DNA from: a virus
Taxonomy: Duplodnaviria > Heunggongvirae > Uroviricota > Caudoviricetes
Strand: one strand, 5' to 3'
IMG/VR virus record: IMGVR_UViG_2721755660_000011
Length of the DNA stretch: 52,258 nucleotides
In this document: positions 26,333 to 31,480 of the stretch, piece after piece
How the letters are laid out: each line of letters opens with the position of its first letter
Numbering within the stretch: position 1 is the stretch's first letter
Translations under genes and position numbers: made by a program
Notes under the pieces: generated by a model
What the model saw: the letters and a program-made list of their open reading frames with translations, nothing else
Told to the model about the DNA's origin: nothing
The model's database searches: none

Positions 26333-26852
26333 TCAGCAACCCCGGTATCAGTTCATCCAGCGCGGCTGCTTTGTTCATGGCTTTGATGATATCCCGTTTC
26401 AGGAAATCAACATGTCGGTTTTCCAGTTCCGGAAAACGCCGCTGCACCGACAGGGGGATCCCGTCGAGAATACTGGCAATTTCACCTGCGATCCGCGACA
26501 GCACGAAAGTACAGAATGCGGTTTCCACCACTTCAGCGGAGTCTCTGGCATTTTTCAGCTCCTGTGCGTCGGCCTGTGCACGCGTAAGTCGATGGCGTTC
26601 GTACTCAATAGTCCCTGGCTGGAGATCTGTCTCGCTGGCCTGCCGCAGTTCTTCAACTTCCCGGCGCAGCTTTTCGTTCTCAATTTCAGCATCCCTTTCG
26701 GCATACCATTTTATGACGGCGGCAGAATCATAAAGCACCTCATTACCCTTGCCACCGCCTCGCAGAACGGGCATTCCCTGTTCCTGCCAGTTCTGAATGG
26801 TACGGATACTCGCACCGAAAATGTCAGCCAGCTGCTTTTTGTTGACTTCCAT
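26307..26852 (-). CDS. nu1: Terminase small subunit Nu1
   Basis: 181 aa, MEVNKKQLADIFGASIRTIQNWQEQGMPVLRGGGKGNEVLYDSAAVIKWY matches lambda gpNu1; sequence GAATGAACAATGGAAGTCAAC at the start matches the lambda Nu1 start region. Confidence 0.95.
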
Positions 26853-26891
26853 TGTTCATTCGTAAGCGGCTCGCCAGAACCGTATTGATAT

Positions 26892-28463
26892 TTACTGAGA
26901 GGTCAGATCAACTTTCCAGGGCAACAGATCGCGTACCCGGTTTGCCGGCCAGTCCTGGATATGCTCAATGACGTAACGCAGCCATTTTTCTGGTTCCACA
27001 TTGTTCAGACGGCATGTGCCGATCAGCGAGTACAACACCGCCGCATGTTCGCCACCGCTGTCGGAACCCGCGAAGAGCCAGTTTTTCCGGCCTACGGCCA
27101 CTCCCCGTAAGGCGTTCTCTGCGATGTTGTTGTCGATTTCCACCTGGCCATTACTGCAGTACACGTTCAGGCCATCCCACTGTTTCAGCAGGTATGCGAA
27201 CGCTTTTGCCGTATCCGAGTGACGCGACAGTGTTTTCATCTGAGTCTGTATCCAGTCATACAGTGACTGCATCAGTGGCGCAGCTCTGGCTTTTCTTGCC
27301 GCCAGACGCTGTTCTGCTGTACATCCCCGGACTTCTGCCTCTATGGCATACAGTTCACCGATACGCTGCAGGGCTTCCGTGGTGATGTCGGTGGGCACTC
27401 TTGCATGCACATCGTGGATTTTTCTCCGGGCATGAGCCATACACGCGGCTTCCGTTATTCTGCCGGATTCGTATAACACCCGGTAACCACCGTAAGCATC
27501 GGCCTGAAGCACACCGCTGTAACCGGCCAGATGATTCTGTGGATGGACGCCTTTCCGGTCCGGGCTGTACGCGAACCAGACCGCCGGAGGCATCTGTGAA
27601 CCGGCGTTACGGTCATCACGGACGTAGACCCACAGCCGGGCAGTCCTTGTTTTACCACTGCCCGGCTCCTGGACCGGGACGGGGATATCATCGGCATGGA
27701 CTTTACCGGGCATCAGCACATACTGGCGCAGGACGTCATACAGCGGCTCCAGCAGTTCAGCAACGGCACCTGTCCAGCGCCCCAGCGTGGCGCGGCTCAG
27801 CTCCACGCCCTGGCGACGGTATATTTCTGACTGGCGGTATAACGGCAGATGGTCTGCATATTTCCCGGTGACAACATGGGCCAGAAGCCCCGCTCCGGCA
27901 TAACTGCGTGCAATGGGTTTTGAAGGTACTGGTGCCTGCACGATATGGTCGCACCGGCAACAGGCCAGTTTCGGACGTTGTGCTTCGATAACCTTAAAGG
28001 CGCTGCTGATAAGCTCCAGTTGCTCTGACACATCACATCCCAGAGAACTGAGTTCGCCACCACAGGCCGGGCAGCATTCCTCTTCCGGCCGGATAACCCG
28101 GGTTTCACGGGGAAGTGAGGTCGGTAACGGTTTACGGGCAGAAGACTGGCGCAGGGGGGATGGCAGTGCCGGGTCATATTGCTCACCCAGCGTTTCTGCC
28201 ATTTCTTCCTGAAGTGCGCTGATTCGCTCCTGTGCTTCCTGTATCTGCCGTTCGGTTTTTGCACGAAGTTTTTCTGAGCTTTTACCGAACTGCATACGCT
28301 GCAGTTTCGCAACCAGCGCCTTCAGCCGGTTGATTTCGGAAGCATAAGCCGCCACCCGCTGTGAGAGCAGGCGGTTGTATTCAGCCATCTGGCGGATGGT
28401 GTCCTGTTGTGTCTGCAACAGTGCCCGCAGGCGGGCATTCTCATGAGCAAGTGAGGTGTCCAT
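26892..28463 (-). CDS. IS66-family transposase TnpC
   Basis: 523 aa; N-terminal coiled-coil region then CxxC...CxxC zinc-binding and DDE domain typical of IS66 TnpC. Confidence 0.85.
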
Positions 28464-28482
28464 ATCCTCACTTTACATCGGG

Positions 28483-28830
28483 TTATATGCGGATTCCAGC
28501 GCGTTCCGTTCGTTTCGGGTGCTTCCAGTTGATGCCCTCAAGAAGCATGGACAACTGAGCCGGAGTAAGGTGAACCTTTCCATCGCGGGTGACCGGCCAG
28601 ACGAAGCGGCCCCGCTCCAGGCGTTTGGTGAAGAGGCACAGTCCGTCGCTGTCAGCCCACAACACTTTTATCTGGTCACCCCGGCGTCCGCGGAAGATGA
28701 ACAGATGCCCGGAGAACGGGTCATCCTTCAGGACGTTCTGAACTTTTGATGCCAGGCCGTTAAAACCATTTCGCATGTCGGTGATACCGGCAACCAGCCA
28801 GATACGTGAACCGGCAGGGAGAGATATCAT
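28483..28830 (-). CDS. IS66-family accessory protein TnpB
   Basis: 115 aa, MISLPAGSRIWLVAGITDMRNGFNGL... typical IS66 orfB product. Confidence 0.85.
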   Translation of the reverse strand: MISLPAGSRIWLVAGITDMRNGFNGLASKVQNVLKDDPFSGHLFIFRGRRGDQIKVLWADSDGLCLFTKRLERGRFVWPVTRDGKVHLTPAQLSMLLEGINWKHPKRTERAGIRI

Positions 28831-29480
28831 CAGTGGCTGCTCCCTTTCATTTCGCGGATAAGTGTCTGTAATAACGCCGGTGTCAGTTCACCTTTCAGCC
28901 TGAGAGTTCCGGCCGGCAGAACCAGCTCGCAGCACAGACTGTCTGGCAGTGTATTTATCTGTTCAGGTATCTGCACTGGTGCCGGGATTTTATTATCCGG
29001 CTCCGGAGTTAACGTCACGGGAAGTAGCGATGTTTCATGTTCGCCGGGCGGCTGCAGGCCGCCGTTACGCCAGAGATGCCGCCAGTTAAAGAGCAGGTTA
29101 TCGTTGATTCCGTTCTCACGAGCTATTTGTGCGACACAGGCACCGGGTAAAAGAGTCCGCTGAACAAGTCTCCATTTAAACTCCGGTGAAAATCGGTTCC
29201 GGCGGGGTTTCTCTGCTTTCACAGGCTGAGTCACGGTCGGGGTTGAAGGATATCGCCCCGGGAAAAGAGCCCGGGCCAGTTGCCCGCAGGAATATTCACC
29301 GGAAAGGGGCCAGTCAGTGAATACCTGGTGAAATCGCCTCACCAGAGAAAAAATGGCGGTTTTGCTGACACCAGTCTGCGCAGAAATGCGCGGGTACGAC
29401 AGTGACTCGTCAAATCTCAGCTGTAGCACACGCAGGATCAATTCCGGATTATCTGCCAATACCGCCTTTCGTGCATTCAT
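28830..29480 (-). CDS. IS66-family accessory protein TnpA
   Basis: 216 aa, HTH-containing IS66 orfA-like protein; start-overlaps tnpB stop. Confidence 0.75.
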   Translation of the reverse strand: MNARKAVLADNPELILRVLQLRFDESLSYPRISAQTGVSKTAIFSLVRRFHQVFTDWPLSGEYSCGQLARALFPGRYPSTPTVTQPVKAEKPRRNRFSPEFKWRLVQRTLLPGACVAQIARENGINDNLLFNWRHLWRNGGLQPPGEHETSLLPVTLTPEPDNKIPAPVQIPEQINTLPDSLCCELVLPAGTLRLKGELTPALLQTLIREMKGSSH

Positions 29481-30253
29481 CTTAAATGTCCTTTTACTGC
29501 GAAAATGGACATTAGTATCGGAAACAGGAAAGGGAGGCGAAAGACGGTTTAAATGATGCGCTTACACAATAATAATCTTCTACCCTTATCAGTACCTTTA
29601 CTGCTGTGCTCCAACACAGCAGTTTTTTTGATTATGCTCACATATTTTTCATCCCCACCGCACTGCACATTATAACTGTTGCTTTTCAATTCAGGCTTTG
29701 TGCAGGTATGTCTGAATCTCCTCCGGGAGAGGTCTTCATCGTTATCAGCCCCAAAACACACCAGCGACACTGACAAAGAGCCTGCGAGTGCAGTTGCCCC
29801 GTTTTCGTTTTATGATGTATTCACCCAGTCAAATAATGAGCAAATTCAATCCATGTCAGACGGCAGAGAATCATAAAATTTAACCATCGTGCTTACATAA
29901 ACAATCCGATAAAGACTTAACATACTTAAAATCGCATATTGCATAAGAATAAATAATAAGTCATCAAAAAACATCGGGCAAAACTACCGCAACTCCAGTT
30001 AAAAAGACAATATATTAATCCAGCGACCTCATTTATTATTCAGAAATGCTTAATAATAAGATATTTCCTGTTATTCCTTTATGGAGATCGGGTAACGGCT
30101 CCATGCCAGTCTTGTTGAATGGCTCAAAAAATAAGAGAATAATTCATAACATATATTGTAATTCAGGCTCGGTTATTTCGAATTGAATACTTGCATTAAA
30201 ATCTGATAAAAAATTCGTCATAACAACAACATTCTCTTCTGCATGTGCCATAA

Positions 30254-30283
30254 CCTGCCGTAACAACCCGGCAGGTTTTTTTA
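30254..30283 (+). terminator. Rho-independent terminator in AT-rich spacer between IS66 element and Rz
   Basis: 7 bp GC-rich stem cctgccg / cggcagg with 8 nt loop followed by seven T (30276..30282) on plus strand. Confidence 0.55.
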
Positions 30284-30482
30284 TTGAATAAATTTCCGGT
30301 TTCTTCCACCATCGCACCGGCCAGGCGACTATGAGGGGACAACGCCGCGCTCCGTTAACGCAGTAAACCCCGGTGTGTATCGTTTTTGATTATCCCCGCA
30401 CACTCGCGCAGAGGAGTCTCCCCGTAGGGCTGCGGTCTCTGTTAATGCGGAAATACGGCGACGATACAACGCATTGAAAAAA

Positions 30483-30965
30483 CTATTTCAGGCACTGAGT
30501 ACGGATATATTCCTGAAGCGTTCTCAATGCTGCCTGGTCGCTGATGATTCCGTCTCTGATACCGAGAACGTTTCGTCCAGCAACTGGAGAGAGTTCGACG
30601 CTGGCATCATTGCCCACGCGGGCGGTGGCGGTGGCTTCACGCACGGAGCCTGGACAGGTGGCGTTGATCCGCAGGCGCTTACGACCAGCGGTAACATCAG
30701 CACGCAGAGTTTCATTTTCAGCTCTCGCATCGGCTAATTCCCTCGAGTATTTTGCATCGAGCGCAGCAACATCGTGCTGGCGCTGCTGCATGTCAGCGAT
30801 GGTGGCGGTCGCCTGCTTCAGCTCACTGACTTTTTTATCACGCTGTTCTTTGTAGGCGATGGCGTTATCACGGTAATGATTGACCGCCCACGACAGGCAG
30901 ACGATGATGCAGATAACCAGAGCATAAATAATCGCGGCGACTCTGCTCACTGATCTATCCCCCAA
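30483..30965 (-). CDS. Rz: Spanin inner membrane subunit Rz
   Basis: 160 aa ORF; matches lambda Rz / DLP12 RzpD ([26 protein letters not shown]...); true start may be the GTG at codon 6. Confidence 0.85.
30524..30730 (-). CDS. Rz1: Spanin outer membrane lipoprotein Rz1 (embedded in Rz, +1 frame)
   Basis: 68 aa; lipobox LVVSAC; proline-rich (PPPPPAW) like lambda Rz1; wholly inside Rz in another frame. Confidence 0.75.
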
Positions 30966-31480
30966 CAGGCTAATGCGCTTTCCTGGTCACGACGAATAAC
31001 CTGTCCATAGCAGTTATTTGAACGTATGCGGCAATCGCGCCCACCATCTTTTATCCACCAGCGAATCGCCTCGCATGCACCCTTACGATCACCGGCATTC
31101 AGCCGCTTATAAAACGTCGACGGGAAACACTTACCGGGGCCAATGTTATAGGGACAAAATGACGCTATACCCGCTTTCTGTGGTTCGGTCAGTGGTACTT
31201 TAATATTGCGTTCCACCCATGCCAGCGCCTTATCACGTTCAATAGCGTTAACCTGGTCGCATTTTTCCTTCGACAGCTTCATTCCCGGTATGACGGGCTT
31301 ACCATCCACCATTGTGGCACCACGACAGATGGTCCATATACCGGAACCATCGCGGTATGCCGTAGTGTGGTTACCCTCTTTTTCATCCAGAAACTGGTCA
31401 AGTATTTGAGGAGCAGACGCGCCTGCAGCAATCAGCGCCAGAACGGCAGCCGACAGGCCGTATCTGATTTTTGCGTTCAT
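30947..31480 (-). CDS. R: Endolysin (lysozyme, signal-anchor-release type)
   Basis: 177 aa; matches my recollection of DLP12 RrrD lysozyme ([43 protein letters not shown]...); N-terminal hydrophobic SAR-like segment. Confidence 0.85.

What the first reader, a model, noticed from the sequence alone, without database searches (positions are those of the whole stretch)
29566..30482. About 900 bp AT-rich noncoding spacer with a strong plus-strand terminator: candidate small RNA or lost bor-like moron
Between the IS66 element and Rz there is no convincing ORF, but there is a strong intrinsic terminator (30254..30283) on the strand opposite the lysis genes, preceded by promoter-like AT-rich sequence (e.g. 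ttgaat ... taaaaa near 30181..30215). A roughly 70-100 nt transcript would end there. In lambda the equivalent position holds bor on the opposite strand; other prophages encode sRNAs near their lysis genes.
Basis: inference. Interest (0 to 1): 0.35.

Follow-up and report, generated by a model that had tools for sequence, protein, structure and literature searches.

The report
Diverged HnrS-family small RNA gene
The strong terminator closes a predicted 63-nt small-RNA gene that is a diverged second copy of HnrS, a recently described prophage RNA that silences the host regulator Hha, and the first copy next to it has been cut off from its promoter by an IS66 insertion.

Summary
Between the IS66 end (29565) and the Rz stop (30483) no ORF is conserved, and a strong + strand intrinsic terminator lies at 30252-30282. 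It follows TTGAAT (30183-30188), an 18-nt gap and TAAAAA (30207-30212).

The spacer has four parts:
- 29566-29630 is an allele of hnrS (EcOnc10/11/12 of EHEC Sakai; a 66-nt Hfq-bound sRNA that represses hha). IS66 cut it near its 5' end. A further 711-bp deletion removed its promoter, ynfO and cos.
- About 550 bp of largely AT-rich DNA follows, with no conserved ORF.
- 30183-30282 ("T2") is a diverged paralogue of hnrS with the same layout: promoter, AAC repeats, a CUUCU anti-Shine-Dalgarno core, hairpin and U7 tail. It is 69% identical to HnrS. A covariance model built only from HnrS-type copies finds it (25.9 bits, E 0.019).
- 30288-30482 is a GC-richer noncoding block matched in 1851 of 5426 E. 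coli genomes. In lambda, 434, 21 and DLP12 it lies upstream of the bor promoter, and bor is absent here.

T2 occurs in 42 of 5426 genomes, and blastn with HnrS misses it. Expression and targets are inferred, not shown. Verdict: a new member of a known sRNA family, of moderate interest.

The parts
26862..29565 (-). IS66-family insertion sequence (2704 bp; tnpA, tnpB, tnpC). It bounds the spacer on the left.
   Evidence: ORFs and RefSeq annotation of the identical copy in GB089. In GB089 the element is flanked by the 8-bp duplication ACAATAAT. In the window the left flank is GTTCATTC, because 711 bp (cos region, ynfO, hnrS promoter) are missing.
29566..29630 (+). Remnant of an hnrS allele ('T1'): the sRNA body from about +3 to the U-tract, cut off from its promoter by IS66. 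The seed CUUCUACC is kept. The 15-nt mazF-complementary stretch is altered.
   Evidence: The HnrS-only covariance model R1 scores it 69.4 bits, E 1.7e-10, with the promoter positions deleted. The uninterrupted allele in OkiPb01676 is 91% identical to Sakai HnrS.
29600..29630 (+). Intrinsic terminator of T1 (9-bp stem, 6-nt loop, T7).
   Evidence: -14.3 kcal/mol, z = -4.0.
29631..30182 (.). Largely AT-rich spacer between the two sRNA units. No conserved ORF; function unknown.
   Evidence: Identity to the ST866 allele falls to 0.33-0.7, with indels that are not multiples of 3. No ynfO remnant by tblastn or blastn. No PHROG hit. GC profile.
30183..30212 (+). Promoter-like sequence of T2: TTGAAT (30183-30188), then GATAAA or TAAAAA (30205-30212). 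It is homologous to the hnrS promoter TTGAAA-N17-TAAAAA.
   Evidence: Sequence; alignment with hnrS upstream regions; full-length match to model R1, which includes the promoter columns. Not verified by any transcript data.
30220..30282 (+). Predicted 63-nt HnrS-family sRNA 'T2': AUAACAACAACAUUCUCUUCUGCAUGUGCCAUAACCUGCCGUAACAACCCGGCAGGUUUUUUU.
   Evidence: The 5' end is inferred from the position homologous to the 66-nt HnrS. It is 69% identical to HnrS and 87% identical to the ST866 T2 allele, with a core of 21/21 identical bases. Model R1 gives 25.9 bits, E 0.019.
30252..30282 (+).
30288..30482 (.). GC-richer conserved noncoding block. It lies upstream of the bor promoter in bor-carrying phages; here it abuts the Rz stop codon.
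   Evidence: Matches in 1851 of 5426 E. coli genomes, 4460 places, up to 9 per genome; nearly all of them cover only this part of the query. Also 398 phage records. Variable columns show no codon-position bias (24/20/23) and variants carry stops.
30379..30400 (.). 5' arm of a conserved inverted repeat inside the block.
   Evidence: RNAalifold helix at columns 97-118 / 165-184 of alignment A4. Of 18 pairs, 4 have compensatory changes, and 3-5 of 500 shuffles reach the observed values. The strand is not resolved.
30446..30465 (.). 3' arm of that inverted repeat.
30483..30965 (-). Rz (i-spanin), with Rz1 embedded at 30524-30730. This is the end of the lysis cassette. The late operon runs on the - strand, antisense to T1 and T2.

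Best explanation
The terminator at 30252-30282 is the 3' end of a small-RNA gene (T2, about 30220-30282, + strand) that is a diverged paralogue of hnrS. It is transcribed antisense to the late operon.

By analogy with HnrS, a weak sigma-70-type promoter (TTGAAT ... TAAAAA) would give a transcript of about 63 nt. Its 5' AAC repeats (A-R-N motifs) and 3' U-tract would bind Hfq. Its single-stranded CU-rich core (UCUCUUCUGC) would pair with purine-rich ribosome-binding sites and block translation. The hha site GGUAGAAG, the validated HnrS target, is one possible partner.

The neighbouring first copy (T1, 29566-29630) is an ordinary hnrS allele inactivated by IS66.

Shown here: homology of T2 to hnrS over promoter, body and terminator; the hairpin; the absence of a conserved ORF; the tandem arrangement in other prophages. 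Shown by others, for HnrS only: transcription, 66-nt size, Hfq binding and hha repression. Inferred: that T2 is transcribed, binds Hfq and regulates hha or any other mRNA.
For: 1. T1-type equals HnrS.
- The 66-nt sequence is present in identical form in Sakai Sp9, Sp10 and Sp12, on the strands listed for EcOnc12, EcOnc11 and EcOnc10, with a constant coordinate shift.
- It contains the exact complement of the last 15 nt of mazF, as the HnrS paper states.
- Its CUUCUACC is complementary to the hha ribosome-binding site.

2. T2 aligns with hnrS from the -35 element to the U-tract and is 69% identical.

3. A covariance model built only from six T1-type sequences hits T2 full-length as the second-best match in the 52-kb window (25.9 bits, E 0.019). 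It hits the ST866-type T2 allele at 44.2 bits, E 1.4e-5.

4. One terminator pair covaries: U-G (Sakai), U-A (OkiPb01676 type), C-G (T2).

5. The two T2 alleles share 21/21 bases of the core, while the spacer to the left is only about 35-75% identical.

6. T2 occurs in 42 genomes and 72 places, up to 4 per genome, and in 17 IMG/VR contigs. It is found either in tandem with T1 or alone in pig ETEC prophages.

7. Duplex prediction puts the T2 core on the hha AGAAG site at -13.5 kcal/mol, against -12.1 for HnrS.
Against: - There are no transcript data for T2.
- Both candidate -10 hexamers are poor, and the consensus scan did not call a promoter there.
- The model E-value is rough and only 0.019.
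- The higher identity of the T2 alleles begins at about the predicted start site and continues into the 95%-identical block. It may therefore mark a mosaic recombination boundary rather than selection on the sRNA.
- The hha duplex energies are reached by 7-11% of shuffled sRNA sequences, so they do not discriminate.
- The CUUCUACC seed is changed to CUUCUGC, and the mazF complementarity is absent.
- Some T2 copies have weakened terminator stems (GGCAG, GGTAG).
Confidence: 0.65

Rival explanations
1. T2 is a decaying, non-functional duplicate of hnrS. It is a relic of recombination between two prophages, and only its hairpin still works, as an orphan terminator.
For: - Weak -10 elements.
- The seed is altered relative to HnrS.
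- Some copies have weakened stems.
- It is rare: 42 of 5426 genomes against 567 for HnrS-type.
- The surrounding 550 bp look like drifting DNA.
Against: - Promoter, AAC repeats, CU core, hairpin and U-tract are all retained in two alleles whose flanks have diverged to about 65%.
- T2 persists alone, without T1, in a different phage backbone.
- It is multicopy in some strains.
Confidence: 0.2
2. The two + strand terminators act mainly as insulators. They stop antisense transcription that comes from ynfO, or here from IS66, before it collides with the late operon. Any RNA made is a by-product.
For: - Both terminators face the convergent late operon and follow the + strand gene ynfO in intact relatives.
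- In JJ1886 and phage 434 there is no sRNA unit at all between ynfO and the block.
Against: - HnrS has its own mapped 5' end and clear trans-acting phenotypes.
- T2 carries its own promoter-like sequence downstream of T1, which an insulator does not need.
Confidence: 0.1
3. The terminator belongs to a protein-coding moron (bor-like or other) that was deleted from this prophage.
For: bor is indeed missing from this lysis-to-packaging junction when compared with 434, 21, PA28, lambda and DLP12.
Against: - In those phages bor lies between the block and Rz, which is to the right of 30482, and it has its own PhoP-box promoter.
- The terminator is to the left of the block.
- None of the 42 genomes or 17 viral contigs with this DNA has a gene upstream of it.
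- There is no conserved ORF or pseudogene signal.
Confidence: 0.03
4. The real gene is a small protein on the - strand, antisense to T2 (MAHAEEN..., 30251 down to 30144, or the 57-aa GTG-started form 30317-30144).
For: - The frame stays open in the ST866 allele despite two indels, each of 3 nt (own translation).
- PGAP calls a hypothetical protein here in a few pig ETEC genomes.
Against: - Amino-acid identity (about 58%) is below the nucleotide identity.
- The ATG lies 2 nt after its only AGG and inside the terminator hairpin.
- There is no PHROG hit.
- It is not annotated in most genomes.
- There is no counterpart antisense to HnrS.
Confidence: 0.03

Closest known systems
HnrS (EcOnc10/11/12), the Hha-negative regulatory sRNA of EHEC prophages Sp9, Sp10 and Sp12 (Poudyal et al., PLoS Pathog 2026, PMC13502914; first seen as Hfq CRAC peaks in Tree et al. 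2014, PMC4104026)
   Same: - Same genomic slot: + strand, between ynfO/ylcI and the Rz end of the lysis cassette, antisense to the late operon.
- Same layout: TTGAA(A/T) -35, A-rich -10, AUAACAA start, A-A-N repeats, CUUCU core, 9-bp hairpin, U7 tail.
- T1 in the window is an allele of it (91% identical).
- T2 is found by a model trained only on it.
   Different: - T2 is 69% identical and 63 nt rather than 66 nt.
- Its seed is UCUCUUCUGC instead of AAUCUUCUACCC.
- It lacks the 15-nt mazF complementarity.
- blastn with HnrS does not find it.
- It sits in tandem downstream of an HnrS-type copy, or alone in pig ETEC phages, whereas the paper describes one copy per prophage.
- Nothing is known about its expression or targets.
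AgvB / AsxR anti-sRNAs (Rfam RF02702, RF02703) of EHEC prophages
   Same: They are short (51-60 nt) Hfq-bound prophage sRNAs that form families with a conserved 3' part and a variable 5' seed.
   Different: They lie in the moron site downstream of pR', between Q and the holin gene, not after Rz. Rfam finds no match at E up to 1 in 28800-31200. No sequence similarity was seen.
bor / borD moron of lambda, 434, 21 and DLP12
   Same: It occupies the same Rz-to-cos interval on the same (+) strand and is expressed from the prophage.
   Different: It is a PhoP-box-driven lipoprotein gene located between the conserved block and Rz. It is absent from the window, and the terminator in question lies upstream of it.

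Membership tests
HnrS sRNA family | Encoded in a lambdoid prophage among the late genes, between the ynfO/ylcI (DUF3950) gene and the lysis cassette, on the strand opposite to late transcription | tested here: met
   Sakai Sp9, Sp10 and Sp12 have the order Rz - block - hnrS - ynfO-like gene. The window has Rz - block - T2 - spacer - T1 - IS66. ynfO is retained in GB089 and OkiPb01676.
HnrS sRNA family | Detectable sequence and structure homology to HnrS over the whole gene | tested here: met
   Model R1 was built from T1-type copies only. It scores T1 at 69.4 bits (E 1.7e-10) and T2 at 25.9 bits (E 0.019), full length 1-101. The ST866 T2 allele scores 44.2 bits, E 1.4e-5. E-values are rough, and the T2 match in the window is marginal.
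HnrS sRNA family | Primary transcript of about 66 nt with its own start site and an intrinsic terminator | tested here: inconclusive
   The terminator is present and strong. A promoter-like sequence homologous to that of hnrS is present, and the predicted length is 63 nt. Whether it is transcribed cannot be tested with these tools.
HnrS sRNA family | Hfq association | not testable with these tools
   Only sequence hallmarks can be seen: AAC AAC AAC (A-R-N) repeats at the 5' end and a U7 tail after the hairpin.
HnrS sRNA family | [quoted passage not shown] | tested here: inconclusive
   T1 keeps CUUCUACC. T2 has CUUCUGC, giving 7 pairs including one G-U, plus flanking pairs. The duplex energy is -13.5 against -12.1 kcal/mol for HnrS, but 7-11% of shuffled sequences do as well.
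HnrS sRNA family | Perfect 15-nt complementarity to the 3' end of mazF (the most abundant CLASH partner) | tested here: not met
   CTACCCAATCAGTAC is present in Sakai HnrS only. It is absent from the window's T1 allele and from both T2 alleles. The paper found no functional consequence of this pairing, so it is probably not a defining function.
bor moron | A lipoprotein ORF of about 97 aa with a PhoP-box promoter between the conserved block and Rz | tested here: not met
   The block ends at 30482 and the Rz stop codon starts at 30483. There is no ORF and no PhoP box there.
AgvB/AsxR, Esr41, STnc100 and other curated prophage sRNAs (Rfam 15) | Match to the family covariance model | tested here: not met
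   No Rfam match at E up to 1 in 28800-31200 on either strand. The nearly complete T1 also gave no match, so HnrS has no Rfam family in this release.

The most novel reading that the evidence does not exclude
HnrS is not a single sRNA but a diversifying family. T2 would be a second lineage with a retargeted seed, and therefore a different or wider regulon than hha. It can sit in tandem with HnrS and spreads into LEE-negative pig ETEC prophages. Together with the adjacent conserved inverted-repeat block, these units might form a lysogen-expressed antisense module within the late operon. That module could also act in cis on late mRNA.
Probability: 0.2. Interest if true: 0.55.

Novelty: new member of a known kind. 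Interest (0 to 1): 0.4.

Why it matters
HnrS was described only in 2025-26. It is reported as the first phage sRNA shown to counteract xenogeneic silencing, and as being tied to LEE-positive pathotypes.

A diverged paralogue that blastn with HnrS, and so probably other similarity searches, would miss has three consequences if it is real:
- The family is broader than reported.
- Copy-number estimates that rely on sequence similarity to HnrS probably undercount it.
- Seed variation could be studied in natural alleles.

The paralogue occurs in tandem arrays and in pig ETEC prophages. The window also shows a natural knockout of one copy by IS66. For annotation, it explains an 'empty' 900-bp interval and flags one PHROG family as a probable artefact.

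Tried and rejected
- Rfam cmscan of 28800-31200 at E up to 1 gave nothing.
- Six small ORFs of the spacer and one from the ST866 allele were scanned against PHROGs. Only the 46-aa - strand ORF in the block hit anything (phrog_6954, 'Rz-like spanin'). That ORF shows no codon-position bias and is interrupted in many variants, so it was rejected as a gene.
- I tested whether the spacer is a decayed ynfO copy. tblastn and sensitive blastn gave no hit better than E 0.03, apart from the short promoter-region similarity.
- I looked for a gene upstream of the terminator in relatives and found none.
- A pattern scan of one genome per species (GTDB) gave only two hits, in Planctopirus and Akkermansia. 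Both are GC-rich, and the model does not recognise them at E up to 1, so they were rejected as chance matches.
- For the block, I considered alternative stems by eye (CGCACCGG/CCGGTGTG against GTGTG/CACAC). Lambda and S107 break them without compensation, so I dropped the attenuator idea.
- I first argued that the G-U pairs favour the + strand for the block hairpin. The alifold energy is in fact lower on the - strand (-36.2 against -28.8), so the strand is unresolved.
- Genome-wide target prediction for T2 was not possible, because no whole genome is available to the scripts and short matches fall below the BLAST thresholds.
[quoted passage not shown] The identification therefore rests on coordinates, copy number, length and the stated mazF and hha complementarities.

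Full report
**1. What is in the sequence**

The interval 29566-30482 lies between the right end of an IS66-family element (last base 29565) and the stop codon of Rz (30483). Rz occupies 30483-30965 on the - strand.

The terminator scan finds two + strand sites, each with a 9-bp stem and a T7 run, at 29600-29630 and at 30252-30282. The stretch ending there folds at -16.7 kcal/mol, z = -4.2. TTGAAT at 30183-30188, an 18-nt gap and TAAAAA at 30207-30212 precede it. The consensus promoter scan does not list this pair, because the second hexamer lacks the final T.

The interval is not uniformly AT-rich. 29800-30250 is 31-35% GC, while 30250-30480 is 52-57% GC. Rfam gives no match at E up to 1.

**2. 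Comparison with other genomes divides the interval into modules**

The whole 917 bp occurs in only 19 of 5426 complete E. coli genomes. Its right-hand ~195 bp (about 30288-30482) is matched in 1851 genomes at 4460 places, up to 9 per genome.

In the simple and common arrangement the order is: ynfO/ylcI-family gene (+), about 145 bp, the first terminator, the conserved block, and Rz (-). O157 prophages and phage BP-4795 show this.

The window and 41 other genomes carry an extra ~640 bp between the U-tract of the first terminator and the block. This extra piece ends with the second terminator. Four genomes have a 71%-identical allele of it.

**3. The two terminator regions are diverged direct repeats**

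Aligning the ynfO-proximal unit (T1) with the unit ending at 30282 (T2) shows shared features in the same order:
- CGA(A/G)TTGAA(A/T) at the -35 position;
- an A-rich -10 region;
- an AUAACAA start;
- A-A-N repeats;
- a UUCU core;
- CUGC(U/C)GU ... CAAC(A/C)C(G/A)GCAG in the hairpin;
- a U7 tail.

**4. T1 is hnrS**

Table S2 of Tree et al. 2014 lists three Hfq CRAC peaks of nearly equal height. These are EcOnc10 (Sp12, +), EcOnc11 (Sp10, -) and EcOnc12 (Sp9, -).

Poudyal et al. (PLoS Pathog 2026) renamed them HnrS. They describe it as follows:
- a 66-nt sRNA with an intrinsic terminator, present in three identical copies;
- Hfq-associated;
- repressing hha by pairing with its AGAAG ribosome-binding site;
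- perfectly complementary to the last 15 nt of mazF.

In the current Sakai record the same 66-nt T1 sequence is present in Sp9, Sp10 and Sp12. It lies on exactly those strands, with a constant shift of about 130-145 nt from the old coordinates. The spacing from AgvB1 to EcOnc11 (5036 nt) also places the peak on the T1 body.

That sequence contains CTACCCAATCAGTAC, the exact complement of the last 15 nt of mazF, gtactgattgggtag. Its CUUCUACC is complementary to GGUAGAAG just upstream of the hha start codon. The paper does not print the sequence. The identification rests on these four independent agreements, and I consider it secure.

**5. State of T1 in the window**

The window's T1 belongs to an allele that is 91% identical to Sakai HnrS. 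It keeps the hha seed but has lost the mazF 15-mer.

In strain GB089 the IS66 element sits inside it, flanked by the 8-bp duplication ACAATAAT. This is 2-10 nt downstream of the inferred start site.

The window matches OkiPb01715 across the IS66 left junction. Compared with GB089 it lacks a further 711 bp immediately left of the IS. Its left flank is GTTCATTC, 9 nt from the Nu1 start codon. The missing segment holds the ynfO gene and the hnrS promoter and, by its position just upstream of Nu1, presumably the cos site.

This hnrS copy therefore has no promoter of its own. The prophage has probably lost the ability to package its DNA (inference).

**6. T2 is a diverged paralogue**

The predicted T2 RNA (30220-30282, 63 nt) is 69% identical to HnrS.

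A covariance model built only from six T1-type sequences, promoter included, gives these hits:
- the T1 remnant at 69.4 bits, E 1.7e-10;
- T2 as the next best hit of the whole window, full length, at 25.9 bits, E 0.019;
- the ST866-type T2 allele at 44.2 bits, E 1.4e-5, which bridges the two.

One hairpin pair covaries: U-G, U-A and C-G.

The two T2 alleles are 87% identical. Their differences are mostly indels in the AAC repeats, the loop and the U-tract. The core AUUCUCUUCUGCAUGUGCCAU is identical at 21 of 21 positions, while the spacer to the left is 33-78% identical.

One caveat applies. The identity stays high through the block to the right, so a mosaic boundary could produce the same picture.

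**7. Distribution**

| Query | Genomes (of 5426) | Places | Note |
|---|---|---|---|
| HnrS-type, 101 nt (blastn) | 567 | 1161 | Sakai has 3; does not retrieve T2 |
| T2, 141 nt | 42 | 72 | up to 4 per genome |

T2 is also present in 17 IMG/VR contigs. Twelve IMG/VR loci show the T1-T2 tandem about 650 bp apart. In pig ETEC and edema-disease strains T2 stands alone next to a different packaging module.

No deposited phage genome has the tandem. A pattern scan of one genome per species gave only two chance hits.

**8. No protein gene**

ORFs of 25 aa or more in the insert differ in frame and length between the two alleles, and most indels are not multiples of three. There is no ynfO remnant and no PHROG hit.

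An antisense ORF (MAHAEEN...) keeps its frame in both alleles. I still consider it unlikely, for three reasons. Its amino-acid identity (about 58%) is lower than its nucleotide identity. Its start codon lies inside the hairpin. It is annotated in only a few genomes.

**9. Likely mechanism**

By homology, T2 should be a short Hfq-dependent trans-acting sRNA. It has A-R-N repeats and a U-tail for Hfq, and an unstructured CU-rich core that can mask a Shine-Dalgarno sequence.

Duplex prediction places UCUUCUGC on the hha AGAAG site at -13.5 kcal/mol, against -12.1 for HnrS. However, 7-11% of shuffled sequences do as well, so this is only compatible, not evidence. The changed flanks of the core could equally mean a shifted target set.

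Both units are perfectly antisense to the late mRNA, so a cis effect cannot be excluded. None of this is shown for T2.

**10. The bor question**

The order along the + strand in phages 434, 21 and PA28, in lambda (block at 46868-46986) and in K-12 DLP12 is as follows:
- upstream gene;
- the block, or only its right half;
- about 115 bp containing a perfect PhoP box in DLP12 (TGTTTAgggttTGTTTA);
- bor;
- Rz (-).

The window has the block joined directly to Rz. The bor unit is absent, but it would lie to the right of the block, not at the terminator.

**11. The conserved block (30288-30482)**

The block is noncoding by my tests.
- Variable columns fall 24/20/23 on the three codon positions of the only sizeable ORF.
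- That ORF carries stops in 434, 21 and Sakai-type copies.
- The PHROG 'Rz-like spanin' family that matches it therefore looks like an artefact of calling ORFs on conserved noncoding DNA.

Nine diverse copies support an inverted repeat at 30379-30400 and 30446-30465. It has 18 pairs, of which 4 carry compensatory changes, and 95.6% of cells are paired against 30-42% when the partners are slid. Between 3 and 5 of 500 shuffles reach the observed covariation measures.

Thermodynamic support is weak, with z from -0.7 to -3.9, and the strand is unresolved. Its function is unknown. I record it as unexplained.

**12. Verdict**

The small-RNA interpretation is supported and made specific: T2 is an HnrS-family paralogue, next to an IS66-disrupted hnrS. 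The lost-bor idea is correct only about the neighbourhood.

The element is a new member of a recently described family, not a new kind of system. Expression and targets remain to be tested.

Noticed in passing
window 26850-26870 and 29558-29575: The IS66 element has no target-site duplication here (GTTCATTC on the left, ACAATAAT on the right). Compared with GB089, which has ACAATAAT on both sides, 711 bp next to the IS are missing. The lost segment carries ynfO, the hnrS promoter and presumably the cos region, and the deletion ends 9 nt before the Nu1 start codon. The prophage has probably lost the ability to package.
   Followed up: yes
window 30288-30482: A conserved noncoding block of about 195 bp is matched in a third of complete E. 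coli genomes, up to 9 places per genome, and in lambda, 434, 21, Stx phages and Salmonella phage S107. It has invariant flanks, a hypervariable middle and an inverted repeat with four compensatory pairs. Strand and function are unknown.
   Followed up: partly
window 30329-30469 (- strand): PHROG family phrog_6954, labelled 'Rz-like spanin', matches a 46-aa ORF in this block at E 1.4e-14. The ORF shows no codon-position bias and is interrupted by stops in many copies. The family and the 'Rz-like spanin' labels in some phage records are probably annotation artefacts.
   Followed up: partly
L012 6447-6512 (Sakai Sp10); window 29566-29630: The 15-nt mazF complementarity of HnrS, its most abundant CLASH partner, is allele-specific. 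It is lost in the OkiPb01676/window allele (CCCTTATCAG instead of CCCAATCAG) and in the ST866 allele, while the hha seed CUUCUACC is invariant in all T1-type alleles except one single copy (L047, CUUCUAAC).
   Followed up: partly
window 30317-30342 (- strand); L070 1245: A short - strand ORF starting MVEETG begins in the invariant left part of the block in every variant, and it is annotated with a ribosome-binding site in phage 21. Its continuation is unrelated between variants. It could be a conserved translation start or leader rather than a protein family.
   Followed up: no
L078 2940-2960 (K-12 DLP12, upstream of borD): A perfect PhoP box, TGTTTAgggttTGTTTA, lies about 50 nt upstream of the borD start codon. 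The bor promoter therefore lies downstream of the conserved block, and the whole promoter-plus-bor unit is what is missing in the window.
   Followed up: partly
window 30115-30143 (+) and 29981-29953 (-): The scan lists two further sigma-70-like sites in the AT-rich spacer. The + strand one would give a longer transcript of about 130 nt ending at the T2 terminator, but its -35 is not conserved in the ST866 allele.
   Followed up: partly
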